A stretch of 64,000 bases of DNA from Dehalococcoidia bacterium (GTDB lineage: Bacteria; Chloroflexota; Dehalococcoidia; Bin125). This document shows, in pieces, positions 5-35,936 of the stretch (position 1 is its first letter; each line of letters begins with the position of its first letter). The notes under the pieces are model-generated. The model did no database searches. It saw only the letters and a program-made list of their open reading frames with translations, and was not told the origin of the DNA. The translations under genes were made by a program, and so were the position numbers. The stretch spans positions 483,549 to 547,548 of the forward strand of contig OZ250140.1 in NCBI GenBank assembly GCA_965237475.1. The letters are read 5' to 3'.

Positions 5-934
5 GTGATCGAGAACTACAGCGCTGGGGCCTTCGCCCGCATGGGCTTCCCCTGGGAGCACCTGCGGGAGATCAATCCGTCGCTGATCTACGTCTCCGTC
101 TCCGGCTTCGGCCACGTCGGCCGCGACGCCTCATATCGCACCTGGGGCCCCAGCGCCCAGGCCATCTCCGGCGCCACCGCCATGTCCGGGCTCCCGGACC
201 AGCCGCCCGCCGGCTGGGGCTTCTCCTACCTCGACCACAGCGCCGGCTACTACGCCGCGATCGCCGTCCTGATGGCCCTCCACCACCGCGCCCGCACCGG
301 CGAAGCCCAGCACGTCGACATGGCCCAGATCGAAGCCGGCATGGTCGTCAGCGCCGTCCCGATGCTCGACTACCAGGTCAACGGCCGCACCTACGAGCGC
401 ATCGGCAACCGCTCCCGCCACCCCGCCACGGCGCCCCACAACACCTATCCCTGCGCCGGCGATGACCGCTGGATCGCGATCGCCGTCGACGATGACGTCC
501 AATGGGCCGCGCTCTGCGACGTGCTCGGCCTCGACGCCCTCCGCGACGCTCCCCGCTTCGCGGAGATGGCCGCCCGCAAGGCTCACGAAGACGCCCTCGA
601 CCAGGCGATCGCCGCCGTCACCAGCGAGCGCGACCCCTTCGACCTGATGCTCCAGCTCCAGGAGCGCGGCGTCCCCGCCGGCGTCTGCCAGCGCAATGAC
701 GACAAGCAAGAGCGCGACCCTCAACTCGCCGACCGCGGCTTCTACCCCAGCGCCCCCCACGCCGAGCTCGGCGAGCACCGCTTCGAGGGCCTGCCCATGC
801 AGTTCTCGCACGCCCGCTGGCGGATCGACCGCGGCGCCCCCCTCATGGGCGAGCACAACCACGCCGTTCTCACTGAGCTGCTCGGCTACGACGACGAGGA
901 GCTCGCCACCATGCTCGCGGAGCTCGCCATCTGA
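5..934 (+). CDS. CoA transferase family III (CaiB/BaiF-like), 5' end lies outside the window
   Basis: 309-aa ORF. Family-III CoA-transferase-like sequence (SGFGHVGRDASYRTWGP...GFSYLDHSAGYY). The reading frame is open to the window edge. Its stop TGA overlaps the next gene's ATG (ATCTGATG). Confidence 0.75.
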   Translation: MIENYSAGAFARMGFPWEHLREINPSLIYVSVSGFGHVGRDASYRTWGPSAQAISGATAMSGLPDQPPAGWGFSYLDHSAGYYAAIAVLMALHHRARTGEAQHVDMAQIEAGMVVSAVPMLDYQVNGRTYERIGNRSRHPATAPHNTYPCAGDDRWIAIAVDDDVQWAALCDVLGLDALRDAPRFAEMAARKAHEDALDQAIAAVTSERDPFDLMLQLQERGVPAGVCQRNDDKQERDPQLADRGFYPSAPHAELGEHRFEGLPMQFSHARWRIDRGAPLMGEHNHAVLTELLGYDDEELATMLAELAI

Positions 935-2250
935 TGCCGCCCTCGAATACCGCCCCCCAGCCAGACCCATCCGGCCCCAGCGACGAGCTCCCCGGCCCCC
1001 GCGAAGGCCCACTCGAAACCCTGCGCGTGCTCGAGATCGGCGACCGCGGCGAGATCGCCGGCAAGCTGCTCGCCGACGCCGGCGCCGACGTCATCCGCAT
1101 CGAACCGCCCGGCGGCGGCCGCAGCCGCCATGTCGGCCCCTTCGTCAACGACGACCCCGGTCAGCCCTCCCTGCTCCACGCCAGCCGTAACACCAGTAAG
1201 CGCGCTGTCACCCTTGACGTCACCCAGCCCGCCGGCCTCGAGATCTGGCAACGGCTGGTCGGCCGCGTCGATGTCGTGATCGACGCCACCAGCCCCACCT
1301 TCCTCGACGCGCTCGGCGGCGGCTGGCAGTGGGCCGAAGCCCAGCCGGACCTGCACGCCTGCGTCTGGTGCAGCATCACCCCCTTCGGGCGCAGCGGCCC
1401 GCGCCGCGACTGGGCCGCCAACGACCTCGTCCAGCTCGCCCTCGGGGGCCCGATGATGAGCAACGGCTACGACGACCACCAGCTCCCCCCGATCCGCCCC
1501 GACGGCGAGCACAGCATCGCGATCAGCAACGAATACGCCGTCGCCGGCCTGCTCGCCGCCCTCTGGATGCGCGATGCCGGCCACCGCGGCCAGCTAGTCG
1601 ACGTCTCCATCCATGAGGCCGTCTCCGCCACCACCGAAGGCGCTTTTCCCAACTGGGAGTACTTCGGCCGCCTCGTCCAACGCCAGACCGGTCGTCACGC
1701 CTCCCCCGACCTCTCCGCCCCCTGGCAATACCTCGCTGCCGACGGCCAGCACGTCTGCCTGATCAGCGGTGGCCTCCCGCGCAGCGTCCCCGCCTGGTCC
1801 GGCCTGCTCGACTGGATGGACGAGCACGATGCCGCGGGCGACCTCCGCGATCCCCAATGGCAGGAGCTCCTCTACCGCGATCCCCGCTCCGACCCCGAAG
1901 CCCGCCTCCACGTCGCCGAGACGATCGGCGCCTTCGTCCAGCGCCTGCCCGCCGAAGAGGTCTACCGCCGCAGCCAGTCCCTCCGCTTCGCCTGGGGCGT
2001 CGTCCGCCGCCCTGAAGAGAACCTGGACGACCCGCACTGGGCCGACCGCGGCTTCTTCTGGGAAGGCGAATGCCCCGGCGTCGACCAGCCCGTCCGCTAC
2101 CCCGGCGCGCCCTACCGCTTTACCCGCTCCCCCGTCCGCCTGCGCCGCCGCCCCCCGCTGCTCGGCGAGCACAACCACGAGGTCTACGTCGGCGAGCTCG
2201 GCCTCAGCCGCGCCGAGCTCCGCGCCTACCTCGAAACGGGCGTCGTCTAG
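934..2250 (+). CDS. CoA transferase family III (CaiB/BaiF-like)
   Basis: 438-aa ORF. N-terminal 'LRVLEIGDRGEIAGKLLADAGADVIRIEPPGGG' glycine-rich CoA-transferase III signature. Translationally coupled to the upstream paralog. Confidence 0.8.
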   Translation: MPPSNTAPQPDPSGPSDELPGPREGPLETLRVLEIGDRGEIAGKLLADAGADVIRIEPPGGGRSRHVGPFVNDDPGQPSLLHASRNTSKRAVTLDVTQPAGLEIWQRLVGRVDVVIDATSPTFLDALGGGWQWAEAQPDLHACVWCSITPFGRSGPRRDWAANDLVQLALGGPMMSNGYDDHQLPPIRPDGEHSIAISNEYAVAGLLAALWMRDAGHRGQLVDVSIHEAVSATTEGAFPNWEYFGRLVQRQTGRHASPDLSAPWQYLAADGQHVCLISGGLPRSVPAWSGLLDWMDEHDAAGDLRDPQWQELLYRDPRSDPEARLHVAETIGAFVQRLPAEEVYRRSQSLRFAWGVVRRPEENLDDPHWADRGFFWEGECPGVDQPVRYPGAPYRFTRSPVRLRRRPPLLGEHNHEVYVGELGLSRAELRAYLETGVV

Positions 2251-2340: not shown

Positions 2341-3416
2341 TAAACGGGTGCCAGCGCCGGCAGCTCGCAGGTGAAGGCGAAGTCGATGGCGGCGTGGACC
2401 GGATGCGTCGATCCGGCCAGGCCGCCGCTGAAGACGGCGGAATACATGCCGCCGCCACCGGCGACGATCAGCACGATGTCTTCGGGGCCGCGCAGTGCGG
2501 GGAGGTCGTCGTCGCCGTCGCCGTCGCGCATGGCCCGCTTCGTGGCCCAGCCTCGCATTACTGATCGGGGCGTCACGGCCAGCTCCGCGAGGCGGTCGCA
2601 GACGGCCTCGCGGCTGAGTCCGGCAGCGGCCAAGACACCGGCGTGGATGGGGTTGAGAGCGACGATCACGGGGCCGCGGCCGATCTGCGTGTTGTTGGCG
2701 CCGGCAATGGCGATGGACGCAGCGACGACGCGGAGGATGCGTTCGGGGGCTTGCGGATCGTCGACGTCGGTCGTCATCATCACGGAGTGCGGTGAGTCGA
2801 CGCCGACCAGGGTGACCGCGGACTGGTCGGCGTCGTAGCCGAAGGCGGTGTGTAGCGGCGGGAAGGGGCTCCCTTCCTCATCCTCGGCAAGGCAGCAGGT
2901 GAACTTGCCGGGCTGACCCAAGGCGGCCATGTCGCCGTGGCCGGGGCGGGCGCCGCCGATGTTCATCAGGCAGAGGCGCAGGGCGCGGCCGATGCTGGCG
3001 TTCGCGCGATGCCCCGGGCCGAGCGCACCCCAGCCGGAGGCGATCGGACCGCAGACCTCCCGCGCGGGCCCGTTGACGATGACCACCGGTCCCAGCGCGT
3101 GTGTCGTCGACTGCATGTTGTCGATGTCGAAGTCCGGATCTCCGACTGCCCGCACGGCGGCCAGGACGACAGGGAAGTGCTCGGGGCGGCAACCGGCCAT
3201 GACGGCGTTGATCGCGATCTTCTCGACCGTGGCCTGGCCGGCGCCGATCATGCCGACAATGACGTCCGGGTCGGTCTCTACCCCGGCGAGCAGGGCTTCC
3301 ACCCGCTCCTCAGTGGGGATCACGACCGGCAGGCCGTCGGTCCACTCGCGCATATGGAAGACCTCGAGCGCCGTCGCTTCGTCCGGGGCCTGGTGGCGCG
3401 TGGCGCGCAGGGTCAC
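2340..3416 (-). CDS. conserved hypothetical protein (family not recognised with confidence)
   Basis: 358-aa ORF with coding-like composition. Its ATG overlaps the stop of the upstream ORF (ATGA-type overlap at 3413-3416). Confidence 0.6.
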   Translation of the reverse strand: MTLRATRHQAPDEATALEVFHMREWTDGLPVVIPTEERVEALLAGVETDPDVIVGMIGAGQATVEKIAINAVMAGCRPEHFPVVLAAVRAVGDPDFDIDNMQSTTHALGPVVIVNGPAREVCGPIASGWGALGPGHRANASIGRALRLCLMNIGGARPGHGDMAALGQPGKFTCCLAEDEEGSPFPPLHTAFGYDADQSAVTLVGVDSPHSVMMTTDVDDPQAPERILRVVAASIAIAGANNTQIGRGPVIVALNPIHAGVLAAAGLSREAVCDRLAELAVTPRSVMRGWATKRAMRDGDGDDDLPALRGPEDIVLIVAGGGGMYSAVFSGGLAGSTHPVHAAIDFAFTCELPALAPV

Positions 3417-3943
3417 AGCTTGCGCCCCTCGAGCAGGTCGATGATGCGGGGCGCGGCCTCGCGGGCGACGCGGGCGAGGTTCTCGTCGCCGGTGCCCGAG
3501 CAGGGGTGAGGCAGGACGTAGCGGGGTATAGCGGGCATGCCCTCGGCCTGGGCGATGAAGGCGGCCAGCTCGACGAACGCCTCGGTAATGATGGCGACGG
3601 CGGGCAGGCCGGCCCTGGCGAAGATCGTTCCGTCACGCACGGTGCCGGATGTGCATCCGCCTCAATGCCCCCAGGCAGCTAAGACGGCATCGCACTCCTC
3701 GGTGATGGCGTCGATCAGCTCGCCGGTCACGGGCGCGACGTTGGGCTTTTGGTAGCGGAGCAAGGCGGCCTGCGGCAGCGCGCTCGCCAGTTCCGATTCC
3801 AAGTTGTCCATAAACTTGACGCCGTCGGGGAAGGCGTTCGCGAGCAGGCCGATCCGGATCGGGCCGCTGGTGTCCGCGAAGAGCTCGTAGGGCTCAACGG
3901 GGATGCCTCCCTCGGCAGTGGGATCGAGAAACGTGACAGTCAT
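3413..3943 (-). CDS. selenoprotein candidate (UxxC motif; two track ORFs joined by in-frame TGA at 3662-3664)
   Basis: ORFs 3662..3943 and 3413..3640 are in the same frame, separated only by TGA. Read-through gives ...DAVLAAWGH-U-GGCTSGTVRDGTIFARAGLPAVAI... (U-G-G-C). Perfect SD AGGAGG 6 nt before ATG 3943. Confidence 0.5.
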
Positions 3944-3964: not shown

Positions 3965-4453
3965 CTAGGGGATCTCGGCCGGGCCTTCCCGATGGATGCC
4001 GAGCACCGCGAGCTGGCGGCCGCCGCCAACGAAGCACGCGACGCAGGTGGAGAGATCGAGGATCTCGTCGTCATCGAACAGCGCCCGCAGGCCCACCCAG
4101 TAGTCATCGTCCATCGACGAGTGGTCGTAGCAGTAACGCTCGGCGAAGTCGATCGCGGCGCGCTCCCGAGCCGTGTACAGCGGGCTCTCGCGATAGTTCG
4201 AGACCTGCGCGTATACCTCTTCGGTCAGATCGTTCTGCATCGCCGATGCAGAGCGGGTGGCCAGTCAAACAGAGCATTGATTGATCTCCGCAATGCGCAT
4301 GCGCACGACTTCCCGTTCGCGAACGGGAAGCTGGCTGTGCTGCAGGACCGCGCGGGAGAGCGCCGTCATCGCGGCCCCCATTTCGGGGCGCGCCTGGAAG
4401 AGACGGGCGCCTTCGGAGCCTTCACCCGGGGCGATGTCGATCCGTGCCATGTC
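3965..4453 (-). CDS. AhpD-like / carboxymuconolactone decarboxylase (CMD) family selenoprotein candidate (CxxU)
   Basis: ORFs 4265..4489 and 3965..4240 are in the same frame, separated by TGA 4265-4267. Read-through gives RIAEINQ-C-S-V-U-LATRS, aligning to the CMD/AhpD 'INGCxYC' redox motif. SD AAGGAG 6 nt before ATG 4451. Hairpin UCUGCAUC-GGC-GAUGCAGA 12 nt 3' of the UGA. Confidence 0.6.
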
Positions 4454-4593: not shown

Positions 4594-5424
4594 CTAGCGC
4601 GCGCGGGTGCCGCCGTCGACGGGGAAGATGCCGCCCGTGATGTAGGAGGCGTCTTCGCTGGCGAGAAAGGCCACCATCGCTGCGATCTCATCGGCTTCGC
4701 CGTAGCGTCCCATCGGCGTCGACGCCGCGAGCCTCGTGTGTACCGCCTCCGGGTCATCCGGGTTAACGCCTCGCTCCATGGCTCGCATCATGCGCGTCTC
4801 AATGGGACCGGGACAGACGGCGTTGACACGGATGCCGTCGCCGACCAAGGCAATGGCCGCAGACTTCGTCAAACTCACGACCGCACTCTTAGTGGCCCCG
4901 TATGCCGCCGCTCGGGAACTGGCTTGGAGCCCGGCGACCGAGGCCGTGTTGATGATCGCGCCCCCGCCCGCTTCCTGCATCACTCGTCCCACAGCCTGCA
5001 AGCCGAAAAAGACGCCCTTGACGTTGACAGCGAAGACCCGATCGAATTCGTCTTCCGGGTAATCCAGCAGCGGTCCAACCCAGCCCTCGATCCCCGCGTT
5101 GTTGAAGAACACATCGATCTGCCCGAATTGGTCGAGTGCCGCCTGGACATACCCGTCGACCTCGCCGGCGACGGTGACATCGGCTGGATGGGTCGCGATT
5201 TGGCCGCCAGCCCGGTGTACCGCTGCCACCGTCTCGTCCAGTTCAGAGTCCGGCAAATCAACCGCCAGGATGCGGGCGCCCTCTGATGCGAAGCGGACGG
5301 CCGTCGCCCGGCCGATGCCCCCGGCGGCTCCCGTAATCACGACGACCCTTCCCTCGAATCGGTCTGCCATCGGCAATCCTCGCTCCTCGTTCAGGTGGCG
5401 GCGGAGCATACCAGCGGGCGCCAC
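4594..5424 (-). CDS. SDR family oxidoreductase (short-chain dehydrogenase/reductase)
   Basis: 276 aa. TGAAGGIGRATA Rossmann motif; typical SDR length and motifs. Confidence 0.85.
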   Translation of the reverse strand: MAPAGMLRRHLNEERGLPMADRFEGRVVVITGAAGGIGRATAVRFASEGARILAVDLPDSELDETVAAVHRAGGQIATHPADVTVAGEVDGYVQAALDQFGQIDVFFNNAGIEGWVGPLLDYPEDEFDRVFAVNVKGVFFGLQAVGRVMQEAGGGAIINTASVAGLQASSRAAAYGATKSAVVSLTKSAAIALVGDGIRVNAVCPGPIETRMMRAMERGVNPDDPEAVHTRLAASTPMGRYGEADEIAAMVAFLASEDASYITGGIFPVDGGTRAR

Positions 5425-5680
5425 GGTCAGTGCACGAGCAACTGATCGTGGGATTCATCGATCGGCGGCGGCGCGGTCCCGGTCGAGGCCGCGCCCGCCC
5501 CCGCGCGGGGAGCGGCGGCAGCGCGGGCGGGCAGGAGGAAGATCTGCCGACTCCAGAGTCCGCCTCGCGGTTCGCGTGCTGACCCCGCTCCGGCGACCCA
5601 GCGACCGAGTGGCTACCGATCTGACCGATCGGTTAGCCTCCGCAACCTTGGGGTTGCTGCAGGATTCTGGAGGCGCTGGC

Positions 5681-6646
5681 GTGGCCGACATTCAGGTGGA
5701 GATGGGGATTGGCCCCCCGACGGGAGCGGCATTCCCGTCGTGGGAGCTCCGCGATCAGGCAGGGCAGGCGATCGATCTGATGGCCGATCGGGCCGGCCGG
5801 GGCGCGCTGGTCGTGTTCCATCGCAGTGCCGCCTGGTGACCGTTCTGTAAGACGCAGCTCGTGGAGCTGCAGAAGGTGGCGGCGGACCTGGAGGCCGAGG
5901 GGATCGCCCTGTATGCGATCAGCTACGACCCTCCGGACGTGCTTGCCGGTTTCGCCGAGCGGCATGGCATCACCTATCCCCTGCTCAGCGACGCGGGCAG
6001 CGGACTGATTCGCGAGCTCGGCCTGCTCAACGAGGCGGCGAGCGGGCGCGTCGAGGGCATCCCGCATCCCGGCGTGTTCGTCCTCGACGCGGACGGCACG
6101 GTGGCCGAGAAACACTTCTACGAGAGCTACCGGGAGCGAGACACCGGCGCGGGGCTCCTGCAACACGTCCTCGGGATCGCCGCCACGCACGACGGGCCCC
6201 AGACGCAGGTGGCGTCCGATGTGGTCCAGCTCCAGGCTGAATTCGACGCATCCAGCTATACGTGGGGGCAGCGGCTCTGGCTGACCGTCAGTTTGACCAT
6301 CGCCCCCGGCTACCACGTCAACGGGCGTCCCATCCCGGTCGGTTACGTGCCGCTGGAGATCGAGATCGACCCACCGGATCGGGTGACGGTCGGCGCCCCG
6401 CGCTGGCCGACGCCGAAGCCGTTCCACGTGGAGGGGCTCGACGAGCAGTTGCACGTGTTCAGCGGCGAGATCCGCGTCTCCGTGCCGGTCACGTTCATGA
6501 CCGTGGACGCCGGCGAATTGGACGTGCGTGGACGCGTCACACTGCAGGCCTGCACGGCCAGGGAGTGCCTGTTGCCAGACTCGCTGAGCTTCGAGTTGCG
6601 GCTGCCGGAGACACCCCTGGTTGAGCGCCCCGCGCCGCGCAATTAG
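5681..6646 (+). CDS. thioredoxin-fold peroxiredoxin/redoxin-like selenoprotein candidate (W-U-P-F-C) fused to a DsbD-alpha-like domain
   Basis: The frame is continuous across TGA 5837-5839. Read-through gives ...GRGALVVFHRSAAW-U-PFCKTQLVELQK..., a UxxC where thioredoxin-fold proteins have WCxxC. GTG 5681 sits 7 nt after GGAGG. The C-terminal half carries 'QACTARECLLP', resembling the DsbD N-terminal domain Cys pair. Hairpin GCAGCUC-GUG-GAGCUGC 16 nt 3' of the UGA. Confidence 0.6.
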
Positions 6647-7261: not shown

Positions 7262-7663
7262 TCAGTGCTGCGGTTGGAAGTAGGCGTGAGCCACAGCCTC
7301 ATCGGGCCAGAGGAAGTCGAATCCCGCTTTGAGCGCGTATTGGCGATCTAGGTCCTCGCGGTCGCCGATGTGCAGATATACGTCCGCTTCATGCTTGGCT
7401 TTCACGTCCGGCAGCATGTGTTTGGAGACAACAAAGTCGACCTCGATGTCGTGCGCGGCCCAGAGGGCCCGTTGACCGCTCAGCGTGCGATCCGAACAGC
7501 TCCCGATCAGGAAGCCCTTTTCGCGTACCCGGCGGACCATGTCCATCGTCAAGACGCCAGGCGGATCGCCGACTTCTAACGTGCCGTCGATGTCGAAGCT
7601 GATCAGAACCACCACGGGCCACTCCTCGTCTTCGACCGTGACTAGTCGGGGCTGGCGCTCCAC
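7262..7663 (-). CDS. HAD superfamily hydrolase
   Basis: 133 aa. 'ISFDIDGTL' HAD motif I. Overlaps the upstream thiolase end, so operon-like. Confidence 0.7.
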   Translation of the reverse strand: MERQPRLVTVEDEEWPVVVLISFDIDGTLEVGDPPGVLTMDMVRRVREKGFLIGSCSDRTLSGQRALWAAHDIEVDFVVSKHMLPDVKAKHEADVYLHIGDREDLDRQYALKAGFDFLWPDEAVAHAYFQPQH

Positions 7664-9018
7664 ACGGTGTAGTTCCCCCCGAGCGGCATCGGCCCACCCG
7701 AGACCGCCACTTCCGGCTTGACGCCAGTGACCTGTCTCGCGCCCGCGCGGCCTTGCAGCTGTTGAATGCAGTCCGTGTGCATCCAGACCCGGCTGCGGCC
7801 ACTGCCGACGTTGCCCCCGCTGGGGGAGACCGGGTTGGGGCCTTCGATACTGATGTCGGTCTGGTAGAAGTCCAGTGCTTCCCCGAACTGGATCCCGCGA
7901 TAGCCCAGGCCTTCCAGGTGGAATTGATGGAAGAGCGAGAAGCCGTCGTACATGTTTTCGAAGGAGAGATCGTCCGCGCTGATCCCCGCGCCCTCGTAGA
8001 TCTTGCGAGCGGTGCGCGCAGTGTCGGCTTCCACCTCATCGAGCGTGGGAAGCAAGCTGCGCGACCGGGTGTTACTGGACGCGTGATTGAGGATGTAGAC
8101 CGGCTTCTGGTTCATGTCCGCCGCCCGCTCGGCCGTGGAAAAGAGGTAGGCGCCGGACATCATGATCGGAATGTCGTTGTCGAACAGGTTGGCGGGCTTC
8201 GCGATCCAGCGCGCCGCGAGATAGTCCTCTGCTCCAAGTTCCTCGGGCCGGTGCTGCGCCCAGTAGCCCTCCGGAAACATCAGCCCGTTGCGGCGCGAAT
8301 TCTCCATGAACGGCGCCATCATTTCGTGGCTCTTGCCGTACTTCCGGCAATACTCCGCGAATTGCAGGGCCGTGCTGTACGAGGCGGGAGCGCCCCATAG
8401 TTGGGTCATGGCGGCGGTGCCAGGCAGGGCGTCCCCGGCGTTGGCCCCACCCTGGTAATAGCGGCCCTCGAAGTTGTGCCAGCTCTTGACCACGAGGCAA
8501 GTGTGGGTCAGACCGTCACCCACGGCCTGAGCCGTCACGTTGAGCGCGTTCGACATGCAGCCGGGGCCGTACATCGTGAACTGGACGTTGCTGAGCTCCG
8601 GCATGTTCGCCAGCAGCCACTCGGTACTGATCTTCGCGATGCCGTCGAGCGGGTCCTCCGTCTGCTGGAAGCTCTGGATCACGTCCAGAGGAAGCGGCTT
8701 GCCCTCCTCCCAGAACGCGCCGGTCGTGGTGTCGCGGACGACCACCAGACCATCGATCTGATCGGGCGCGACGCCGGCGTCGTCGATCGCCTGCCGCAGC
8801 GCCTGAATGCTGATCGCGCCGACGCACGTCTCCGGGCGGCCGTCCCAGCGCCGGTTTGTCGGCGCGTGGCCGACGCCGACGGCGGCGACCTTGCCGCGGT
8901 GCTCCCAAATACCAAGCCCTTCGTCGTTGCGGTACATCGCAACCGGTGCAGTTGGTGTCGTCACTACGCGTACTCCTTGCGGCATGGGCTGTTCAGGTGG
9001 ATCGGGATCAGCCAGCAA
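7642..9018 (-). CDS. thiolase-like protein (SCP-x / lipid-transfer type)
   Basis: 458 aa. Thiolase-fold length. Paired with a downstream-overlapping DUF35 OB-fold protein, the classic arrangement. Confidence 0.7.
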   Translation of the reverse strand: MLADPDPPEQPMPQGVRVVTTPTAPVAMYRNDEGLGIWEHRGKVAAVGVGHAPTNRRWDGRPETCVGAISIQALRQAIDDAGVAPDQIDGLVVVRDTTTGAFWEEGKPLPLDVIQSFQQTEDPLDGIAKISTEWLLANMPELSNVQFTMYGPGCMSNALNVTAQAVGDGLTHTCLVVKSWHNFEGRYYQGGANAGDALPGTAAMTQLWGAPASYSTALQFAEYCRKYGKSHEMMAPFMENSRRNGLMFPEGYWAQHRPEELGAEDYLAARWIAKPANLFDNDIPIMMSGAYLFSTAERAADMNQKPVYILNHASSNTRSRSLLPTLDEVEADTARTARKIYEGAGISADDLSFENMYDGFSLFHQFHLEGLGYRGIQFGEALDFYQTDISIEGPNPVSPSGGNVGSGRSRVWMHTDCIQQLQGRAGARQVTGVKPEVAVSGGPMPLGGNYTVWSASPD

Positions 9019-9421
9019 TCACGCGCCACTCGGGCACGAGCTGACCGTTCGCCGTGGGCTCGAAGATCACCTCGACGGCCGCGCCGAGCGGCACGTCGTC
9101 GACCGGCGTGCCGGGCAGGTGCGAGAACATCTGGATCTCCGGGTCGTCCTCCAGCATGATCACGGCAACGTTGAAGGGCTGATTCTCTTGGAGCAGCCGC
9201 ACGGGACAGTCATGCACGACGCCGTAGTTGTAGATCGTGCCACGCCCGCTGACGGGCTTCCACTCGAGTGGATCGCTGGCGCCGCACTGGCGGCAGGCAT
9301 CCGCCGGCGGATGCTGCAACCGATTGCAGGCGCGGCAGTTCTGGATCACCAGGCGCTCTTCGTTCGCGGCGTCCCAGAACGGCTGACTGAAGCTGTCCGG
9401 CAGCACGCCTTGCTTGGTCAT
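9008..9421 (-). CDS. Zn-ribbon/OB-fold protein (DUF35 family)
   Basis: 137 aa. CRAC...CRQC zinc ribbon followed by an OB-fold-like segment. Overlaps the thiolase start by 11 nt. Confidence 0.7.
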   Translation of the reverse strand: MTKQGVLPDSFSQPFWDAANEERLVIQNCRACNRLQHPPADACRQCGASDPLEWKPVSGRGTIYNYGVVHDCPVRLLQENQPFNVAVIMLEDDPEIQMFSHLPGTPVDDVPLGAAVEVIFEPTANGQLVPEWRVIAG

Positions 9422-9769: not shown

Positions 9770-10516
9770 TCAGCAGTGAAACAGCAGGGATCTTGCAGGG
9801 GGTCGGCAGGGATTCGGAGCGCAAGTTCGGCTGCAGGTCCGTGTGCTCCGGCCGGCGTCTGGCTTCCGCGGGCTCGGTGTCGGCGCCGCTTCGGCCAGCG
9901 GTTCGGTAGGGGTCCGTTCGGACCGGCATCGTCCGTGATCATCTGATCGCCCGGGGGAGAACGACTGGGCGTGTCGCAAGAAGAGGTCGCGCGGCAGTTG
10001 CGGCGGCCCCAGTCCCACGTCTCGAAGTGTGCGCTGGGCGAGCGCCGCGTGGACGTGATCGAGCTCGCCGCGTTCGCGGATTGCTACGGGCAGGCGCTGA
10101 CTTACTTCTCCGGCGAGACGGCCTGGCAGGAGCCGCCGGCGCCGAGCGGCCGACGCAGCCGCCTCGGTGATGCCGCGCTCCTCCATGACCAGGAAGCTGG
10201 CGCAGTCGGTCAGGCTCCAGCGCTGATCGGGTCGAGCCGCGTGGCGCGCAAGCGCTGCTCGAAACTGCTCATCCGACTGAGCGACTATTTCCACCTCAGG
10301 GCGGCTCTGTAGCTCTTCGACCAACAATACGGCTCGTCGCCGTGAGACTTGACCGGCTCTGGCTACAAAAGCGAGCACTTCGACCAGCACCGTTTGGGTT
10401 GTCAGGATCTGAATCTCGCCGAGTGCTTCAGTCACCGACTCGGCCCGATTCATGAGCTGGTCGGCAGTTCCGAGCTCGGCAACCCAGTAGCCGGTGTCGG
10501 CGAAGGCCGTTCGCAT
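9770..10516 (-). CDS. PIN-domain toxin (VapC-like); PIN domain about 10120..10516, C-terminal 100 aa of the ORF low-complexity (possible frameshift or late stop)
   Basis: N-terminus MRTAFADTGYWVAEL...SLTDCASFLVMEERGI carries PIN acidic residues. Its start overlaps the antitoxin stop by 1 nt (TGATG). Confidence 0.55.
   Translation of the reverse strand: MRTAFADTGYWVAELGTADQLMNRAESVTEALGEIQILTTQTVLVEVLAFVARAGQVSRRRAVLLVEELQSRPEVEIVAQSDEQFRAALARHAARPDQRWSLTDCASFLVMEERGITEAAASAARRRRLLPGRLAGEVSQRLPVAIRERGELDHVHAALAQRTLRDVGLGPPQLPRDLFLRHAQSFSPGRSDDHGRCRSERTPTEPLAEAAPTPSPRKPDAGRSTRTCSRTCAPNPCRPPARSLLFHC
9947..10312 (+). pseudogene. XRE-family HTH protein fragment (first helix missing)
   Basis: ...LGVSQEEVARQLRRPQSHVSKCALGERRVDVIELAAFADCYGQ... 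is the second half of an HTH_XRE. A stop lies immediately upstream in frame. It overlaps the convergent PIN ORF. Confidence 0.35.
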
Positions 10517-24330: not shown

Positions 24331-27300
24331 TTGGCTCATTCTGATCATCAGAGTGAGCGAGTGCGCGGGAGAGGGCGATCCATGGGCGAACTCACGCGGC
24401 GCGCGCGGCGTGTGTGTGCGGCGGTCTTCGGCATTGTCCGCCATCGCCCCACGTTGCTGCTCGTCGGAGTTGCAGGAGTTGCCCTGCTCGGCGCCTTGCT
24501 GTCCAGCCCCTTGTCCGCCCATGGCCAGAGCTTCGACCAGGTGTCCGCGGACACCACCGCCCGCTGGATCGTTGAGGGCGGCCGCGTCTCGGCCGGCGGT
24601 GGCAACGGCTTGACCAAGTTCGCCCAACTTTCCGATGCCGGTGCGATCGACGAAGGCCACAGCGTGTCTGCCGTGGTGTGGAGCACTGCGCCGCACGGTC
24701 CGTCTGGCATCGGGATTAGGGGCGCCTACTCGTCCATCGCCAACACCCCGACGAGCGGCGGGCCCGCGACCACTCAGACAACGCCGGCTGAGGTGCTAGT
24801 CACCCCGACCTTTCTGAGGATCGCGGAGGCCGGCAGCGGTAGCTATTGGGTCTGGTTGCGAACCGCGCCCAGCGCCGATGTGGCGATCGTGATCAGCGCG
24901 GGTGCGGGCGTCGCGGCCTACCCGGCGGAGGTCAAGTTTACGCCTACGAGCTGGCGGAGCGCTCAGATCATCACCGTCAGCGCGCCGGACGACGCGGACA
25001 CGACCAACGAAGACATCTTGATCACGCATGAAGTCAAGATCGGCAGCGCGTCCGAGTACCTAAACGTGGTCGTGCGGAGCGTGCACGTGGTGATAGAAGA
25101 CGACGATGATGCCGGGATCTACGTGTCGCCGACCCGGATGCGGATCGCCGAAGGCCACTCGGCGACGATTGACGTGAAGCTGGAAGCTGCGCCGACGGCG
25201 GATGTGACGGTGACTCCGACGGCGACGACGACGACAGGCGACAGCTCGGTTCCGGACTTCGATTCGTTGACGTTTACCAGCAACGATTGGAACACGGCGC
25301 AACAGCTCACGCTGTCCGCCCCGCAGGACGCCGGCATTAGCAGCGAGGGCTTCAGGATTACGTTCACGGCCGGGAGTAGCGACAGCAACTACAACATCAC
25401 CAAATACAGAGGACCGGAGGTCGTCGTCGAGTTCGCCGACGACGACGGCCGTTGGGCGTGTCTGAGCGTCCGGCCTAAGCGTCTGTATGTGCCGGAGGCT
25501 GGGACAGCCACGTTCAATGTTGCGCTCTGCACCAAGCCCAGGGCCAGACGTGCGGGTGGTTCGCCCGACGTCGGGATCAGCATCTCCGCCGGCGGGGACG
25601 TGACGGTCGACCCGAACAGGCTCCGCTTCGACGAGTCGAACTGGGCGTCGGGGATCACTGTGACCGTCAGCGCCGGAGCCGATGAGGACGGCGCCAATGA
25701 CGAGGTCACCGTCAACATTCGAGGCAGTGGGGGTGGCGATTCCCTCTACGCCGGCACGGAGGCTCAGGTCCCGGTCATCGTCATCGATGACGACAGCGGC
25801 GGGATCATCAACCCAACTGACATCACGGTTCCCGAGGGTGGCAGGGGCTACTACAAAGCCATGGTCATCTCCGAACCCTCGGGTGTCGTGACCATCTCCA
25901 TCTCAGCGGGCCCGGGCGTGACCACGAACGTCTCCCGGCTCAGCTTCACGCCCTCAAACTGGGAGACGCCCCAGTACGTGATCGTCAGCGCGCCCGCCGA
26001 CTCCGTCACGGAGAACGTCGGCCTCCAGTTGTCCCATTCGATCGGCGGCAGCTCGAGCGAATATGACGCCATCACGCTGCCGGATGTAATGGTCACAGTG
26101 GCCGACAGTGGAGCTGGTCCGGTCAATTTCGCCCGGGCAGATCAGGCCGACGGCACCCAACTGAGCTGGAGTCCGCCGCCGACGCCGATCACCCCCGGCC
26201 TCCGCACCGAGGTCTACCAGTACGAGCTCGAGCGATCCGTCGATGGCGGCGCCTTCGCGTTGCTGACCTGCGTCGACGGGGACTCGGGCAGCCTCCTCGA
26301 CGAGAGCGTCGTGGAGGGCACGGCGTACCGCTACCGGGTCCGCGCCGTCTACTACGCCACCACCCGCTGTGCAGCGTTGCGAGACATCGAGCTGACGTCG
26401 GGGGCACTTGTTCAGTGTGAGGCCTCCGGTGTCTGGTCCGACGGCGACACGATCTGGGTCGCGCACGAATCCGATCAGACGCTCTACGCATACGATCTGG
26501 CGACGGGCGACGCGCAAGCCGACGATGACATCACACCGAACACTGCCTACACGGATGTCGACGGTGGCCTGTGGGGCGACGCAACGCGCATCTGGACCGT
26601 GACCGCGAAGCACCCCCGACCCAGTCTCCCTGAACAAGTCGCGTTTGTCCCATATCGGATATCCGACGGCGCGTTCCTCTCGAGCGATCTCCTACCTACC
26701 AATGGCGACATGCGCCCCATCGGCTACCACCCGAGTGGCGTGGACCGTGCAGCGCTACCAGCGGCCGAGGCGTTCTTCAGCGACGGTTCGACGTTCTGGG
26801 CCGCCGCGTCGGGGCGTGACACGTTGTTCGCCTACCGAGCGTCCGACGGCGAGCGCGACTACGACAAGGACATCCTCGTGCCGGACACGGTCTGTCAGCA
26901 CGATCAGGTCGTGGGCATCTGGCACGATTCATCGCAGGGTCTGTTATATCTGGCGACGCAGTGCTCCACGCGAAAGCTGTTTGCGCTTGACCTGTCAGAC
27001 GGGCCGGGGAACGCGCACCACATCCCCGTTCACGACGTCACGTTGCCTCCTGCGCATGGCGAGATTAAAGACTTCTGGTCCGACGGCGACATTGTCTGGG
27101 TCAGTTCCAACACCAGCTCTACAACCACCAGGGACAAGCTGCTCGCCTACCCGCTGCACAACAACCGCCAGTACTCGGGCTGGTCCTCGCCGCCTGCCGT
27201 GGAGTCGGTCACGGTGGCCGAGGCCTCGATCACGCAGACCGAGGCGACGGCAACGGCCACGGTCAGCGAGCCCAACGGCGGACTCGTCCACCTCCGTTAC

Positions 27301-30300
27301 TCAGACACAACTGACCCCGAGAACTGGACGCTCACCTCTCTGACGGCGGAGATCGGCTCGACGACGGTCGACTTCCTGCTGACCGGCCTCACCGCGAACC
27401 GTGAGTATACGGTGGAGGCGTCCTTCGACAGCAGCCTCCCGGCGGCGCGTACGAAGACGGCCACGTTTAGGACGCTGCCGCCCGCTATCGAGTCCGTCGG
27501 CGCGATCGCAAAGACGCAGACCACGGCCACCATCAGCGCCATCATCAGCGCTCCGAACGGCGACTCGAAGAGGGTCCAGCTCCGCTACCGGATCAAGGAC
27601 GAGACGGCGTGGCAGGCAACGGACCCAGTAGATACGACCAATGATCACGCGGACTTCGCGCTGAGCGACCTCACCTCCGGGACCGACTACGAGCTGGAGG
27701 CCTCGTTCGACAGCAACTTCCCGACCGACGAGACGACTACCGGCAAGTTCGCGACCGAACCGCCCAGCGTGGATTCGGTCGTCGCGAGCGGCGAGACGCA
27801 GACCGGGGCGACGATCACCGTGAATGTCATCGAGCCAAACGGCAGCCTCGTCTACATCCGATTCCGCGCCGGCGCGACCTGGAAGTCCGAATCCGCGGAG
27901 GTCGCGTCCGGCGAGGTCTCGCACGAGTTCACCCTGATCGATCTGACGTCGGATACCACTTACCAGGTGGACGCGTCGTACGACAACACCTTCACCGACA
28001 GTGACGCGATCCGCTCTGACAGCTTCAAGACGCTGCCGCCGAATGTGGAATCGGTCGACGTCAGTGACGAGGGACAGACGAGTGCGACCGTCACGGTCAC
28101 CGTCGAAGCGCCCAACGGCAGTGAAGTGCAGCTACGCTACCGCACCGGTACCGGTGGCTGGAGGACGACCCGCAAGCCCGTACTCGCCGGCGAAACATCC
28201 GTCGAGTTCGCGTTGCGCGGGCTGATCTCCGACCGCGAATACGAGGTCCAGGCCTCCTACGATTCGAGCTTCCCGGACACCGATGCCACGCTGTCGACGA
28301 CCTTCACAACCCTGCCGCCCAGCGTCTACTCCGTCATCGTTCGCGACAAGACCGAGACGACCGCGAACGCCAAGATCAAGATCGCCGCGCCGAACGGCGA
28401 CTCGCAGACCGTCCGGCTGCGCTACTCCCCCACAGCGGCGGAAAGCTGGAGCACCGCCGAGCCGGCCACCAGCACTGACGCAGACGCGACGATCCCGCTC
28501 CAGAGTCTGACCGCCGCCACGCAGTACAAGGCGGAGGCCACGCTGGCAAGCGACTTCACCTCCGGTGTGCGCTCGACCGTCTTCTCCACCCTGGGCGATG
28601 ACGCAATCGTCGAGGACATCTTTGTGTACGAAGAAGACATCCACCAGACAGAAGCCTGGGCGACGATCATCGTCGCCAACGTGGGCGGAGTGCCGAGACA
28701 CGTCTACCTTCGGTACCGCACCGCCGGCGATACGCCGGGAAGCTGGAACGCAACGCTGCTGGAGGCCGATACCGATCCGATCGCTCAAGATACTGCGACG
28801 ATCAGGATCACGAATCTGATCGCCGGCACGCAGTACGACGTGCAGGCGTCGCTGGACTCGACGTTTGCCACCGGCACTCAGCAGACCACCTTCACGACCG
28901 ACGCGCCGGACCCGGAGATCGTGAGTGTGATCGCCACCAGCGACTCGTCGACCAGGGCCACGGTCACGGTCACCATCAACCACCCGGATGGCAGCAGCGT
29001 CTACGTGGGTTACCGCACGACGGGCGACCCGCCCGGCTCATGGAGCGCGCCCGTTGATTTCGCCGCCGACACGTCCAGACACTCGCTGACTCTGTCTGGC
29101 CTGTCTCCGTCGACAGAGTATGAAGTGACGGCGGTGTTCGGCACCCCGTTCCCCGCGACACCACGCGTGTCGGACATCTTTTCCACCCTGGCGTTCGATG
29201 CCACGCTCACCGACGTACGGGTGACGAACATCGCGCAGTCGGGCTCGGGCGGCGCAGCCAAGGCGACGGTCACCGTCGCAATCGCCAACGCAAACAACAT
29301 GGCTCGGATGATTTACCTGCAATATCGCGAGGTCGGCGCCGCCGCCTGGAGTGACCCACCCCTGGAAGTCAGCGTCACTGAAACTGCCACGCGTGACATC
29401 ACGACCTTGATGGTCAGCTCGAACTACGAGCTGCAGGCATCGCTCACGGACGACTTCACCAGCCCTGCCGCAACCAGCTTTTCTACGCCGGACGTGGTGA
29501 AGGTCAGCGTCGACGTAACCGAGCAGACCGCGAAGGTCACCGTCGAGATCGGCAACCCCGGGAGTGCGGAGAAGACGGTGCACCTCCGCTACGGTCCCGT
29601 CGATGAAACCGAAACGCAGACAAGCACGAAGAGCGAAAGGACAACCAAGACGAGCAGGAGCAGCACCGAGACGAAGAGCAGCACCGAGACGAAGAGCAAG
29701 GAGGGGACAACGACCGGCGACAGTGTCGAGATCCCCCTGCCAGCCCTGATTCCCGACCAGATGTACTCGGTCGAGGCGTCGCTCGATGACAGCTTCAATC
29801 GGGGCGTAAGACGCGCAGAGTTCCGCACAGAGGCGGGCACCAGCCCGATCATCACCACCCCCGGCGGCGGTGGCGGCGGCGGTGGCGGCGGTCCACCGCC
29901 CAAGCCGGTCCCATCCGAAGCCGATTTCACCTGGAACGTCACCCGCGACATCGACTCACTGCACGGGGGGAACGACCAGCCCACAGGGATTTGGGGAGAC
30001 GGTGAGCTGCTCTGGGTCCTGCAGAATGCTACCTCCGGCCCCGACGCCATCTTCGTCTACGACCTTGAAACCGGCGAACGCGTGGAGGACCGCGAGTTCG
30101 AACTCGACCACAGAAATCGCTTCTCGCACGGCATCTGGTCCGACGGCGAAACCATCTGGATCTCCGACAGCGGCCGCGACCTGCTCTTCGCCTACGACAT
30201 CGACACCGGGGAACGCTTGCCCGAGCTGGATATCGAACTCCACGAGGACAACCGCGACCCGCGTGACATCTGGTCCGACGGTGAGGTGATCTACGTACTC

Positions 30301-33633: not shown

Positions 33634-33719
33634 GCCTGCGAGGATAGAAAGTCGCCGAGCTTGCTGACGGATTCACGCGCGCGGCAGGTCCAGCTCGGGA
33701 CCCTGCGACGCGAACCAAC

Positions 33720-35908: not shown

Positions 35909-35936
35909 GTCGTCCAACGACCTGAGTTGCTCGAAG

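What the first reader, a model, noticed from the sequence alone, without database searches (positions are those of the whole stretch)
5681..6646. Thioredoxin-fold peroxiredoxin-like gene with in-frame UGA at the WCxxC position (W-U-P-F-C), fused to a DsbD-alpha-like domain
Seen directly: codons ...GCC TGG TGA CCG TTC TGT AAG... The frame upstream (5681->5836) and downstream (5840->6646) is identical. The downstream ORF has no start codon of its own before conserved sequence. The TGA sits exactly where thioredoxin-fold oxidoreductases carry the first Cys of CxxC. A 7-bp hairpin GCAGCUC-GUG-GAGCUGC starts 16 nt after the UGA, the usual position of a bacterial SECIS. The C-terminal half resembles the DsbD N-terminal (alpha) domain with a CxxxxC pair, so this would be a two-domain relay with Sec at the entry point. 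Standard gene callers will split or truncate it.
Basis: partly seen in the sequence, partly recalled or inferred. Interest (0 to 1): 0.6.

Follow-up and report, generated by a model that had tools for sequence, protein, structure and literature searches.

The report
Selenocysteine Prx-like/DsbD-alpha fusion oxidoreductase gene
This is one real gene whose internal UGA encodes selenocysteine in a thioredoxin-type redox site fused to a DsbD-alpha-like domain; it belongs to a widespread family that uses selenocysteine in almost every genome examined and that gene callers cut in two.

Summary
Window 5681-6646 (+) is one reading frame with a single in-frame TGA (5837-5839) giving W-U-P-F-C, followed by the hairpin GCAGCUC-GUG-GAGCUGC (5854-5870).

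Evidence that the TGA encodes selenocysteine:
- All 80 related loci from more than 12 phyla have TGA at this codon.
- Rare homologues have Cys there.
- The hairpin is 94.7% paired, with compensatory changes in 5 of 7 pairs and constrained synonymous sites.
- It is absent from two of the three Cys-form genes whose DNA I could read; the third looks like a very recent Sec-to-Cys switch.
- tRNA-Sec, selA, selB and selD lie beside the gene in Luminiphilus and Acidobacteria genomes.
- Two more TGA-recoded redox genes (UGSC family, AhpD-like CxxU) lie within 2 kb in the window.

The protein has a Prx/ResA-fold domain lacking the peroxiredoxin Pro, Thr and Arg, so it is a UxxC oxidoreductase and not a canonical peroxiredoxin. 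It is fused to a DsbD/ScsB-alpha-like domain with a conserved Cx4C pair.

Not shown: the direction of any electron relay, the substrate, and the sel genes of this particular genome.

UxxC Prx-like selenoproteins have been known since 2004-2005. This two-domain subfamily is not in the curated lists I could check. It is a new variant of a known kind, of moderate interest.

The parts
5681..6646 (+). Complete selenoprotein CDS: 321 codons plus TAG, GTG start, Sec at codon 53
   Evidence: Single frame with one internal TGA. Homologous in frame across the TGA in 80 loci. ATG at the equivalent start codon in L001, L002 and L006.
5669..5673 (+). Shine-Dalgarno-like GGAGG, 7 nt upstream of GTG 5681
   Evidence: Read directly from the sequence; function inferred.
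5837..5839 (+). UGA codon read as selenocysteine (U of W-U-P-F-C)
   Evidence: TGA in 80/80 loci. Cys in rare homologues at the same column.
5846..5848 (+). Resolving Cys of the UxxC motif; aligns with the peroxidatic Cys of AhpE
   Evidence: Invariant in 65 distinct Sec-form and 33 distinct Cys/Ser-form motif segments. Alignment to M. tuberculosis AhpE.
5854..5870 (+). SECIS hairpin: 7-bp stem (6 bp in the family consensus) and small apical loop with an invariant G (5861) followed by U or G
   Evidence: 94.7% of cells paired against 14-43% in slid controls. 5 of 7 pairs have compensatory change; 0/500 shuffles reach the observed values. RNAalifold consensus. Stem third-codon positions 0.10-0.48 bits against 1.2-1.9 bits outside. 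Absent in Cys forms P0054 and the L068 paralogue.
5723..6109 (+). Prx/ResA-fold (AhpC-TSA, PF00578) domain
   Evidence: Pfam 1.7e-26. PDB sequence hits to AhpE, BCP and ResA. Foldseek on the AF2 model of Cys homologue P0054: Bcp4, AhpE and ResA at TM 0.75-0.83 normalised to the target.
6233..6595 (+). DsbD-alpha/ScsB-alpha-like domain (DsbD_N, PF11412), all-beta
   Evidence: Pfam 2.5e-13. The only PDB sequence hit for the domain alone is ScsB-alpha 6c29, E = 2.3e-4. All-beta in the AF2 model.
6551..6568 (+). Cx4C cysteine pair (TGC 6551-6553, TGC 6566-6568) in Q-A-C-T-A-R-E-C
   Evidence: Q-x-C-x4-C present in 77 of 81 family sequences. Aligns with the Cys pair of ScsB-alpha.
3413..3943 (-). 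Context: neighbouring UGSC-family selenoprotein gene with in-frame TGA at 3662-3664 (H-U-G-G-C)
   Evidence: Pfam UGSC PF24696, 141 bits. NCBIfam NF041046, 105 bits over profile positions 4-146 of 147, below its 125-bit cutoff. TGA conserved in L001, L002, L004 and L005.
3965..4450 (-). Context: neighbouring AhpD-like (CMD) selenoprotein gene with in-frame TGA at 4265-4267 (C-S-V-U)
   Evidence: Pfam CMD PF02627, 50.7 bits, spanning the TGA. 8-bp hairpin with GGC loop 13 nt after the UGA. TGA conserved in L001, L002, L004 and L005.

Best explanation
Window 5681-6646 encodes one roughly 35-kDa selenoprotein. The ribosome reads UGA 5837-5839 as selenocysteine because the mRNA hairpin 14 nt downstream (5854-5870) acts as a bacterial SECIS that recruits SelB with Sec-tRNA(Sec). 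This step is inferred from comparative evidence and was not shown biochemically.

Sec occupies the N-terminal, nucleophilic position of a thioredoxin-type UxxC motif in a Prx/ResA-fold domain. That domain lacks the peroxiredoxin Pro, Thr and Arg, so I read it as a selenol/thiol-disulfide oxidoreductase and not as a canonical peroxiredoxin. It is fused to a DsbD-alpha/ScsB-alpha-like domain that carries a conserved Cx4C pair.

The most likely mechanism is inferred. The two redox centres exchange electrons within the protein, as DsbD-alpha and ScsB-alpha do with separate thioredoxin-fold partners such as CcmG, DsbC, TlpA and PrxL. I favour alpha-like Cx4C to UxxC to substrate (an oxidised thiol, a disulfide or a peroxide), with about 55% confidence in that direction. 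The window's protein has no signal peptide and should be cytoplasmic. Some family members are exported.
For: Recoding:
- TGA at the same codon in 80/80 loci from Chloroflexota, Methylomirabilota, Acidobacteriota, Gemmatimonadota, Myxococcota, Alpha- and Gammaproteobacteria, Actinomycetota and others.
- Cys at that column in P0050, P0054 and 29 representatives.
- The 'W' in P0052 is really TGA.

SECIS:
- 94.7% paired, 5 of 7 pairs with compensatory change, 0/500 shuffles reach this, slid controls 14-43%.
- Synonymous Gln CAA with Leu UUG covariation (8 double changes at the pair of columns 27 and 37).
- Stem third positions 0.10-0.48 bits against 1.2-1.9 bits elsewhere.
- The hairpin-encoding residues TQLVELQ are far less variable in Sec forms than in Cys forms, while the flanking residues are equally variable.
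- Cys forms P0054 (-3.0 kcal/mol) and the L068 paralogue (0.0) lack the hairpin; the Sec-form median is -11.5.

Sec machinery:
- 5 of the 13 tRNAs in all locus flanks are tRNA-Sec.
- selA (568 bits) and selB (363 bits) followed by selC lie 2-3 kb upstream in Luminiphilus.
- selC, selA, selB and selD lie directly downstream in Acidobacteria locus L074.
- Two more TGA-recoded selenoprotein-family genes lie in the window.

Protein:
- Pfam AhpC-TSA plus DsbD_N.
- The AhpE alignment puts U on the Prx Thr and the following Cys on the peroxidatic Cys; the AhpE Arg116 position is Pro.
- Cx4C is kept in 77/81 sequences and aligns with the ScsB-alpha cysteines.
- AF2 model of Cys homologue P0054: pLDDT 92, pTM 0.89.

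Precedent: ScsB keeps Prx-like and Trx-like proteins reduced (PMC3322552).
Against: - No selA, selB, selC or selD lies in the 64-kb window or in the flanks of its closest relatives L001-L006, so the Sec trait of this genome is inferred and not seen.
- No Rfam family matches the hairpin.
- Folding the single sequence is not better than shuffles (z = -0.75); only the comparative analysis supports the structure.
- Part of the hairpin's conservation could come from protein-level constraint on QLVELQ, and the recent Cys form P0050 still has the hairpin.
- The relay is untested. I could not measure inter-cysteine distances in the model. A Methylomirabilota/Rokubacteria lineage has lost one or both alpha-domain cysteines (L020, L035, P0050), so the pair is not indispensable.
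- No conserved neighbouring gene points to a substrate or a reductant.
Confidence: 0.88

Rival explanations
1. Same selenoprotein, but the Sec domain is a peroxidase. Sec reacts directly with H2O2 or organic peroxide as in glutathione peroxidase, forms a selenenylsulfide with Cys+3, and is then recycled by the alpha-like Cx4C pair or by thioredoxin.
For: The closest sequence and fold relatives are true peroxiredoxins: AhpE and BCP/PrxQ. The Prx peroxidatic Cys position is retained as an invariant Cys. The BCP-like YPLLSD motif is invariant. The neighbouring genes are an AhpD-like protein and a UGSC-family redox protein. A periplasmic ScsB to TlpA to PprX peroxide pathway exists (PMC3322552).
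Against: The Prx signature PxxxTxxC and the catalytic Arg are not present in the alignment to AhpE. CxxC-type proteins on this fold (ResA, TlpA, CcmG) are disulfide reductases. The Prx-like protein PrxL reduced by ScsB had no detectable peroxidase activity (PMC3322552).
Confidence: 0.3
2. Same selenoprotein, but with the electron flow proposed by the first reader. The Sec domain plays the role of DsbD-gamma: it is the entry point, is reduced first, and passes electrons to the alpha-like domain, which then reduces other client proteins.
For: In DsbD a thioredoxin-fold domain (gamma) reduces alpha, and alpha is the dispatching hub (established knowledge of DsbD; abstract of PMC3322552). Cx4C is kept in 77/81 sequences.
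Against: Nothing here fixes the direction. Sec is more often found at the substrate-facing site of redox enzymes (general knowledge). Some lineages lose alpha-domain cysteines while keeping UxxC, which fits UxxC being the essential catalytic centre.
Confidence: 0.3
3. The TGA is a true stop. There are two separate products (a 52-residue peptide and a 261-residue protein restarting at GTG 5861), or the gene is a pseudogene or carries a sequencing error.
For: This is how all gene callers annotate the family. No sel genes are visible in the window.
Against: TGA is conserved in 80/80 loci across phyla. The residues P-F-C-K-T-Q-L between the TGA and the restart codon are conserved, including the invariant Cys. 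A restart product would lack the whole redox motif and the first beta-strands of the fold. Restart codons differ between loci, as shown by the varied starts of the database proteins. Cys homologues are read through as one protein.
Confidence: 0.02
4. The UGA is read as another amino acid (Trp or Gly) through genome-wide codon reassignment.
For: One JGI product (P0052) and two representatives show W at this column.
Against: For P0052 the codon is TGA, so the source simply read it through. The carriers span more than 12 phyla that use the standard code. Homologues have Cys, not Trp or Gly, at the site. A conserved SECIS-like hairpin and adjacent sel genes are not explained by reassignment.
Confidence: 0.01

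Closest known systems
Prx-like thiol:disulfide oxidoreductase / 'Prx-like protein' selenoprotein families (Kryukov & Gladyshev 2004; Zhang & Gladyshev, PMC1088965, PMC2398784; listed in PMC13188914)
   Same: PF00578-type fold with a thioredoxin-like UxxC motif in place of the TxxU of Sec-peroxiredoxin. Sec forms outnumber Cys forms (22 to 4 in the Sargasso Sea data). Found next to AhpD-like selenoprotein genes in metagenomic reads. Function unknown.
   Different: None of the papers I read mentions a C-terminal DsbD_N domain. [quoted passage not shown] I could not compare directly with the exemplar WP_010940744.1. No NCBIfam model reaches its cutoff.
DsbD-alpha / ScsB-alpha with their thioredoxin-fold clients (CcmG, DsbC, TlpA to PprX, PrxL; PMC3322552)
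   Same: The same pair of modules: a PF11412-type domain with a redox Cys pair, and a Trx/Prx-fold partner with two redox residues. Exported family members could work in the same compartment.
   Different: Here the two modules form one soluble polypeptide with no membrane (beta) domain. The window's protein has no signal peptide. The client site uses Sec. PrxL has two distant Cys, not a CxxC-type motif.
Peroxiredoxins of the AhpE and BCP/PrxQ subfamilies
   Same: Best sequence and fold matches for the N-terminal domain. The position of the peroxidatic Cys is conserved.
   Different: The Prx Pro, Thr and Arg are missing. Thr is replaced by Sec, giving UxxC.
ResA / TlpA / CcmG (CxxC thiol-disulfide reductases on the same fold)
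   Same: CxxC-type motif at the N-terminus of helix 1. Foldseek TM about 0.75.
   Different: They are Cys-only, membrane-anchored or periplasmic, and single-domain. Sequence similarity is lower than to AhpE and BCP.
NCBIfam selenoprotein models SelL-related redox protein (NF040769) and ResA-like WAxxUGC protein (NF041054)
   Same: Curated Sec-containing relatives on the same fold; weak hits of 43 and 24 bits.
   Different: Far below their cutoffs of 120 and 300 bits, with a different motif and architecture.

Membership tests
Bacterial selenoprotein gene (UGA decoded as Sec) | In-frame UGA conserved among orthologues, with coding conservation on both sides | tested here: met
   80/80 loci have TGA. 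tblastn matches span the TGA.
Bacterial selenoprotein gene (UGA decoded as Sec) | Cys-containing homologues align Cys with the UGA | tested here: met
   P0050 (TGT), P0054 (TGC) and 29 representatives.
Bacterial selenoprotein gene (UGA decoded as Sec) | SECIS: stable stem-loop just downstream of the UGA with a small apical loop containing G (PMC1088965) | tested here: met
   14-nt spacer, 6-7 bp stem, loop with an invariant G, median -11.5 kcal/mol. Covariation and synonymous-site constraint are present, and the hairpin is lost in old Cys forms.
Bacterial selenoprotein gene (UGA decoded as Sec) | selA, selB, selC and selD present in the same genome | not testable with these tools
   None in the 64-kb window or in L001-L006, and whole genomes cannot be fetched. 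Indirect support: the family gene lies next to selA/selB/selC/selD in L053, L062 and L074, next to selC and selD in L060, and near selC in L058. Two further TGA-recoded selenoprotein-family genes lie in the window.
Bacterial selenoprotein gene (UGA decoded as Sec) | Selenium incorporation shown experimentally | not testable with these tools
   Needs 75Se labelling or mass spectrometry.
Peroxiredoxin (Prx) | AhpC-TSA/Prx fold | tested here: met
   Pfam PF00578 at 93 bits. Foldseek hits to Bcp4, AhpE and PrxQ.
Peroxiredoxin (Prx) | Active-site signature PxxxT/SxxC | tested here: not met
   The sequence is S-A-A-W-U-P-F-C. There is no Pro at -7, and Sec replaces Thr at -3.
Peroxiredoxin (Prx) | Conserved catalytic Arg (AhpE Arg116) | tested here: not met
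   The aligned position is Pro in GIPHPG. This rests on a pairwise alignment only, and an invariant Arg further on (SYRERD) was not placed structurally.
Prx-like UxxC selenoprotein (Zhang & Gladyshev 'Prx-like') | Distant Prx homology (pfam00578) with a thioredoxin-like UxxC motif | tested here: met
   definition taken from PMC1088965 and PMC2398784.
Prx-like UxxC selenoprotein (Zhang & Gladyshev 'Prx-like') | Orthology with the published exemplars (for example WP_010940744.1) | not tested
   The exemplar sequence cannot be retrieved with these tools.
DsbD-alpha / ScsB-alpha domain (PF11412) | Profile match above the gathering score | tested here: met
   50.5 bits against a cutoff of 25.
DsbD-alpha / ScsB-alpha domain (PF11412) | Redox cysteine pair at the conserved position | tested here: met
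   Cx4C in 77/81 sequences. It aligns with the Cys pair of ScsB-alpha 6c29.
DsbD-alpha / ScsB-alpha domain (PF11412) | Immunoglobulin-like beta-sandwich fold | tested here: inconclusive
DsbD / ScsB electron transporter (whole protein) | Membrane beta domain and gamma domain in the same protein | tested here: not met
   Only two soluble domains, with no hydrophobic segments.
NCBIfam SelL-related (NF040769) / WAxxUGC (NF041054) | Score above the curated cutoff | tested here: not met
   43 bits against 120, and 24 bits against 300.

The most novel reading that the evidence does not exclude
This two-domain protein is a self-contained, selenium-based redox relay: a DsbD-alpha-type electron hub fused to its own Sec-containing client. 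It works without a membrane partner in the cytoplasm of many aerobic soil and marine bacteria. It may also be one of the main reasons these lineages keep the Sec machinery, since it uses Sec in every reference genome examined, sits beside selABCD in three phyla, and clusters with UGSC-family and AhpD-like selenoprotein genes as a 'selenoprotein island'.
Probability: 0.3. Interest if true: 0.6.

Novelty: new variant of a known kind. Interest (0 to 1): 0.45.

Why it matters
First, annotation. Across every public source I sampled, this family is recorded as a truncated 'redoxin domain-containing' or hypothetical protein that lacks its active site, so selenoproteome counts for Chloroflexota, Acidobacteriota, Methylomirabilota, marine Gammaproteobacteria and others are too low. 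No NCBIfam model captures the family, and one could be built from these loci.

Second, biology. The family is close to an obligate Sec user, so Cys is evidently a poor substitute here, which makes it a good system for asking what Sec buys a thiol oxidoreductase. A DsbD-alpha-like domain tethered to a client in a cytoplasmic protein extends the known range of that module.

Third, method. The SECIS is unusually clean: a short palindrome that fixes the peptide QLVELQ. It can serve as a search pattern and as an example of RNA structure constraining protein sequence.

Tried and rejected
- Rfam at gathering score (whole window) and at E up to 10 (5780-5950): nothing relevant.
- Single-sequence folding of 5830-5900: z = -0.75, uninformative on its own.
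- A word-indexed search with the N-terminal 104 residues found only 9 proteins. These were useful only for showing fragments that end at ...RSAAW and two exported Cys forms.
- Gene-neighbourhood clustering over 80 loci found no conserved partner other than sel genes and other selenoprotein genes. The large 'clusters' were alternative-frame ORFs of the gene itself.
- I considered whether Sec forms are cytoplasmic and Cys forms exported. Rejected: six Sec-form loci (L045, L046, L071, L074, L076, L080) have clear signal peptides.
[quoted passage not shown] Rejected: that domain has three Cys including a CxxC.
- A looser scan of the window for further TGA-recoded redox genes gave only the three reported; the rest looked like off-frame noise.
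Full report
**1. The observation**

The sequence is as described. Reading from GTG 5681, the frame runs to TAG 6644-6646 with one internal stop, TGA 5837-5839, in the context GCC TGG TGA CCG TTC TGT AAG (A-W-U-P-F-C-K). The mechanical ORF list splits it into 5099..5839 and 5861..6646 in the same frame.

The hairpin GCAGCTC (5854-5860) / GTG / GAGCTGC (5864-5870) is present. The spacer after the UGA is 14 nt, not 16. GGAGG at 5669-5673 lies 7 nt before GTG 5681, and the equivalent codon is ATG in the relatives L001, L002 and L006, so 5681 is the likely start and Sec is residue 53.

With U read as C, Pfam gives AhpC-TSA (1.7e-26), Redoxin (1.1e-16) and DsbD_N (2.5e-13).

**2. Is the TGA conserved, and what aligns with it?**

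A search of 5.8 billion proteins gave 269 relatives. Of the 120 listed, 117 begin just after the redox motif and cover about 75-83% of the query, which is the signature of gene callers stopping at a conserved TGA. Separate database proteins end exactly at ...FHRSAAW.

Three listed proteins are full length: P0050 (WCPFC), P0054 (WCPYC) and P0052 (WWPFC). Their DNA shows TGT, TGC and, for P0052, TGA that the source had read through.

A scan of one genome per species returned 137 relatives, and the best 80 were fetched. The motif RSxxW-TGA-xx-C was found in all 80, in frame, with tblastn matches running from query residues 1-4 to about 300-314. The carriers include:
- Dehalococcoidia and other Chloroflexota
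- Methylomirabilota/Rokubacteria
- Acidobacteriota and Gemmatimonadota
- Myxococcota
- Alpha- and Gammaproteobacteria (Luminiphilus, Halieaceae)
- Acidimicrobiia
- Planctomycetota, KSB1, Nitrospira and others

The window is 95% identical at the protein level to Dehalococcoidia MAG chromosomes OZ244584.1 and OZ253504.1.

An exhaustive HMMER search with the Cys form P0050 found 4,342 relatives at E ≤ 0.001 and 110 at E ≤ 1e-30. Of the best 150 cluster representatives, I picked out the 32 that cover the motif. Among these, 29 have Cys, 2 show 'W' and 1 shows Ser. The rest start after the motif.

**3. The hairpin as a SECIS**

I aligned the 60 nt around the TGA from the window and the 80 loci; the alignment has no gaps.

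- *Base pairing.* For the 7-pair helix, 94.7% of cells form standard pairs, against 14-43% when the partner is slid by 1-3 columns. Five of the seven pairs show changes on both sides, and none of 500 shuffles reaches any of the observed measures.
- *Covariation.* The clearest case is synonymous on both sides: Gln CAG/CAA pairs with Leu CUG/UUG (8 double changes and 4 G-U). Divergent members have wholly different but still complementary stems (GGAACU...AGUUCC in KSB1, CCAACU...AGUUGG in Acidobacteriota).
- *Consensus.* RNAalifold gives a 6-bp stem and a 5-nt loop. [quoted passage not shown]
- *Synonymous sites.* Third-codon positions inside the stem are nearly fixed (0.27, 0.48, 0.10 and 0.39 bits). 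Third positions in the loop and flanks vary freely (1.2-1.9 bits).
- *Protein-level control.* The seven residues encoded by the hairpin (T-Q-L-V-E-L-Q) have entropies of 0.98/0.20/0/0.39/0.45/0.20/0.73 bits in 65 distinct Sec-form segments, against 2.24/0.90/0.44/2.30/1.98/0.72/1.53 bits in 33 Cys/Ser-form segments. The next three residues are equally variable in both sets.
- *Cys-form DNA.* Of the three Cys-form genes whose DNA I could read, two lack the hairpin: P0054 at -3.0 kcal/mol and the L068 paralogue at 0.0, against a Sec-form median of -11.5. The third, P0050, keeps it and is almost identical in DNA to the Sec form in L020, so it is probably a very recent TGA-to-TGT change.

Rfam has no matching model, and the single-sequence fold is not significant. 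The case for the SECIS is therefore comparative.

**4. Sec machinery**

The window has no tRNA gene and no selA, selB or selD, and whole genomes cannot be fetched with these tools. Two indirect lines are strong.

*The family gene sits next to the machinery in other genomes.* Of the 13 tRNA genes in all locus flanks, 5 are tRNA-Sec.
- In Luminiphilus (L062, a complete genome, and L053), selA (TIGR00474: 568 and 487 bits, cutoff 268), selB (TIGR00475: 363 and 374 bits, cutoff 242) and tRNA-Sec lie 2-3 kb upstream.
- In Acidobacteria locus L074, tRNA-Sec starts 29 nt after the gene and is followed by selA, selB (361 bits) and selD (367 bits).
- L060 has selD next to its tRNA-Sec.

*The window itself holds two more TGA-interrupted genes of known selenoprotein families.*
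- At 3413-3943 (-) is a UGSC-family gene with H-U-G-G-C. Pfam PF24696 scores 141 bits. NCBIfam 'UGSC family (seleno)protein' scores 105 bits over the whole profile, below its 125-bit cutoff.
- At 3965-4450 (-) is an AhpD-like (CMD) gene with C-S-V-U. Pfam PF02627 scores 50.7 bits. An 8-bp hairpin with a GGC loop lies 13 nt after its UGA, the same geometry as in the finding.
- Both TGAs are conserved in relatives at 82-96% identity.

Clustering of Prx-like and AhpD-like selenoprotein genes has been reported from metagenomes (PMC2398784; PMC13188914).

**5. What the protein is**

*N-terminal domain.* The best solved relatives are M. tuberculosis AhpE, BCP/PrxQ and ResA. An AlphaFold2 model of the full-length Cys homologue P0054 (41% identical to the window's protein; 48-sequence alignment) has pLDDT 92.2 and pTM 0.89, with an α/β domain followed by an all-β domain. 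Foldseek places the first domain on Bcp4, AhpE, PrxQ and ResA at TM 0.75-0.83 normalised to the target.

In the AhpE alignment, Sec falls on the Thr of the Prx TxxC signature, and the following Cys falls on the peroxidatic Cys. The Prx Pro is absent, and the AhpE Arg116 position is Pro. The domain therefore fails two defining peroxiredoxin features. It has instead a thioredoxin-type UxxC with Sec in the N-terminal, nucleophilic position, which is how the literature describes the 'Prx-like' selenoproteins (PMC1088965).

*C-terminal domain.* It matches PF11412 (DsbD_N). On its own, its only PDB sequence hit is ScsB-alpha (6c29, E = 2.3e-4), with its Cx4C aligned on the ScsB-alpha cysteines. Q-x-C-x4-C is present in 77 of 81 family sequences. 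The exceptions are two Methylomirabilota/Rokubacteria loci with one Cys lost (L020, L035), one locus with a shortened C-terminus (L039), and L070, whose frame ends 19 codons after the TGA.

*Localisation.* The window's protein and most Sec forms leave no room for a signal peptide. Six Sec-form loci, from Acidobacteriota, Gemmatimonadota and KSB1, have clear signal peptides, as do many Cys forms. The family therefore works in both compartments.

**6. Mechanism**

*Shown by comparative evidence:* UGA recoding directed by a SECIS; a UxxC redox centre on a Prx/ResA fold; a second conserved Cys pair on a DsbD-alpha-type domain in the same chain.

*Inferred:* the two centres exchange electrons. The precedent is that DsbD-alpha and ScsB-alpha reduce separate thioredoxin-fold clients, including TlpA and a Prx-like protein (PMC3322552).

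I favour alpha-like Cx4C to UxxC to substrate. CxxC proteins of this fold are terminal reductases, and some lineages lose alpha-domain cysteines while keeping UxxC.

No conserved neighbour identifies the substrate or the upstream reductant. The high pTM suggests a fixed arrangement between the domains, but I could not read distances from the model.

**7. Novelty**

UxxC Prx-like selenoproteins have been known since 2004-2005 and are abundant in marine metagenomes ('Prx-like 1', pfam00578, UxxC, 225 sequences in GOS; PMC2398784). The marine members of this family may already be among them as read-length fragments.

What I could not find:
- the DsbD_N fusion in those papers or in the family table of the 2026 review;
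- any NCBIfam model that captures the protein;
- any correctly annotated copy. NCBI, ENA, JGI and Logan proteins are all truncated, except for one JGI product (P0052) that reads the TGA through as Trp and the rare Cys forms.

I therefore class it as a new variant of a known kind. It is a solid, useful finding of moderate surprise.

Noticed in passing
window 3413-3943 (-), TGA at 3662-3664: A UGSC-family gene interrupted by an in-frame TGA, giving H-U-G-G-C instead of the usual U-G-S-C. Pfam UGSC scores 141 bits; NCBIfam 'UGSC family (seleno)protein' scores 105 bits, below its 125-bit cutoff. The TGA is conserved in L001, L002, L004 and L005. No convincing SECIS was identified by single-sequence folding.
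   Followed up: partly
window 3965-4450 (-), TGA at 4265-4267: An AhpD-like (CMD, PF02627) gene interrupted by an in-frame TGA, giving C-S-V-U. An 8-bp hairpin UCUGCAUC-GGC-GAUGCAGA lies 13 nt downstream. The TGA is conserved in four relatives. Together with the finding and the UGSC gene, this makes three selenoprotein genes within 3.3 kb.
   Followed up: partly
L062 11198 to about 11800 (-); L053 11202 to about 11800 (-); L067 1291 to about 1900 (-): In Luminiphilus, a second single-domain AhpC/TSA-like gene with an in-frame TGA (...FFRAHW*PYC...) and a hydrophobic N-terminus converges on the family gene. With selA-selB-selC upstream, this forms a 'Sec island' of about 8 kb.
   Followed up: partly
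L074 11037-15653: In an Acidobacteria MAG, tRNA-Sec, selA, selB and selD follow the family gene directly. The selD ORF starts at profile position 33, so its N-terminus may itself be cut at a Sec codon.
   Followed up: partly
L058 16142-16645 (-); L060 15304-15807 (-): Alphaproteobacterial loci carry a UGSC-family gene with an in-frame stop at the U of U-G-S-C, 5-6 kb from the family gene and near tRNA-Sec (and selD in L060). The pairing of UGSC with this family recurs across phyla.
   Followed up: no
L081/L082 (P0050), L020, L035: A Methylomirabilota/Rokubacteria lineage has lost one or both cysteines of the alpha-like domain. One member (P0050) has switched TGA to TGT while keeping a perfect SECIS hairpin, which looks like a very recent Sec-to-Cys conversion.
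   Followed up: partly
L070 about 10130-10190: In this Chloroflexia MAG the frame ends 19 codons after the TGA. This is a frameshift, an assembly error or a pseudogene.
   Followed up: no
L083 (P0052); representatives P0197 and P0263: Some database products show Trp at the Sec column. For P0052 the codon is TGA, so the source translated it as W. Such entries can pass for full-length Trp variants.
   Followed up: partly
window 33717-33941 and 35934-36158: A 225-nt direct repeat (96% identical), plus a weaker 43-nt pair. Together they bracket the only low-GC stretch of the window (GC 0.58 against about 0.65), which holds two plus-strand ORFs. This may be an insertion with a duplicated flank.
   Followed up: no
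window 24331-31683 (+) and 52069-59268 (-): Two giant ORFs of 2,450 and 2,399 aa. Not examined.
   Followed up: no
window 934-2250, 4594-5424, 7642-9421: The surrounding genes are ordinary metabolism: a family III CoA-transferase, a short-chain dehydrogenase between the selenoprotein genes, and a thiolase-like protein with a ChsH2-type OB-fold protein. None is conserved next to the family gene in other phyla.
   Followed up: yes
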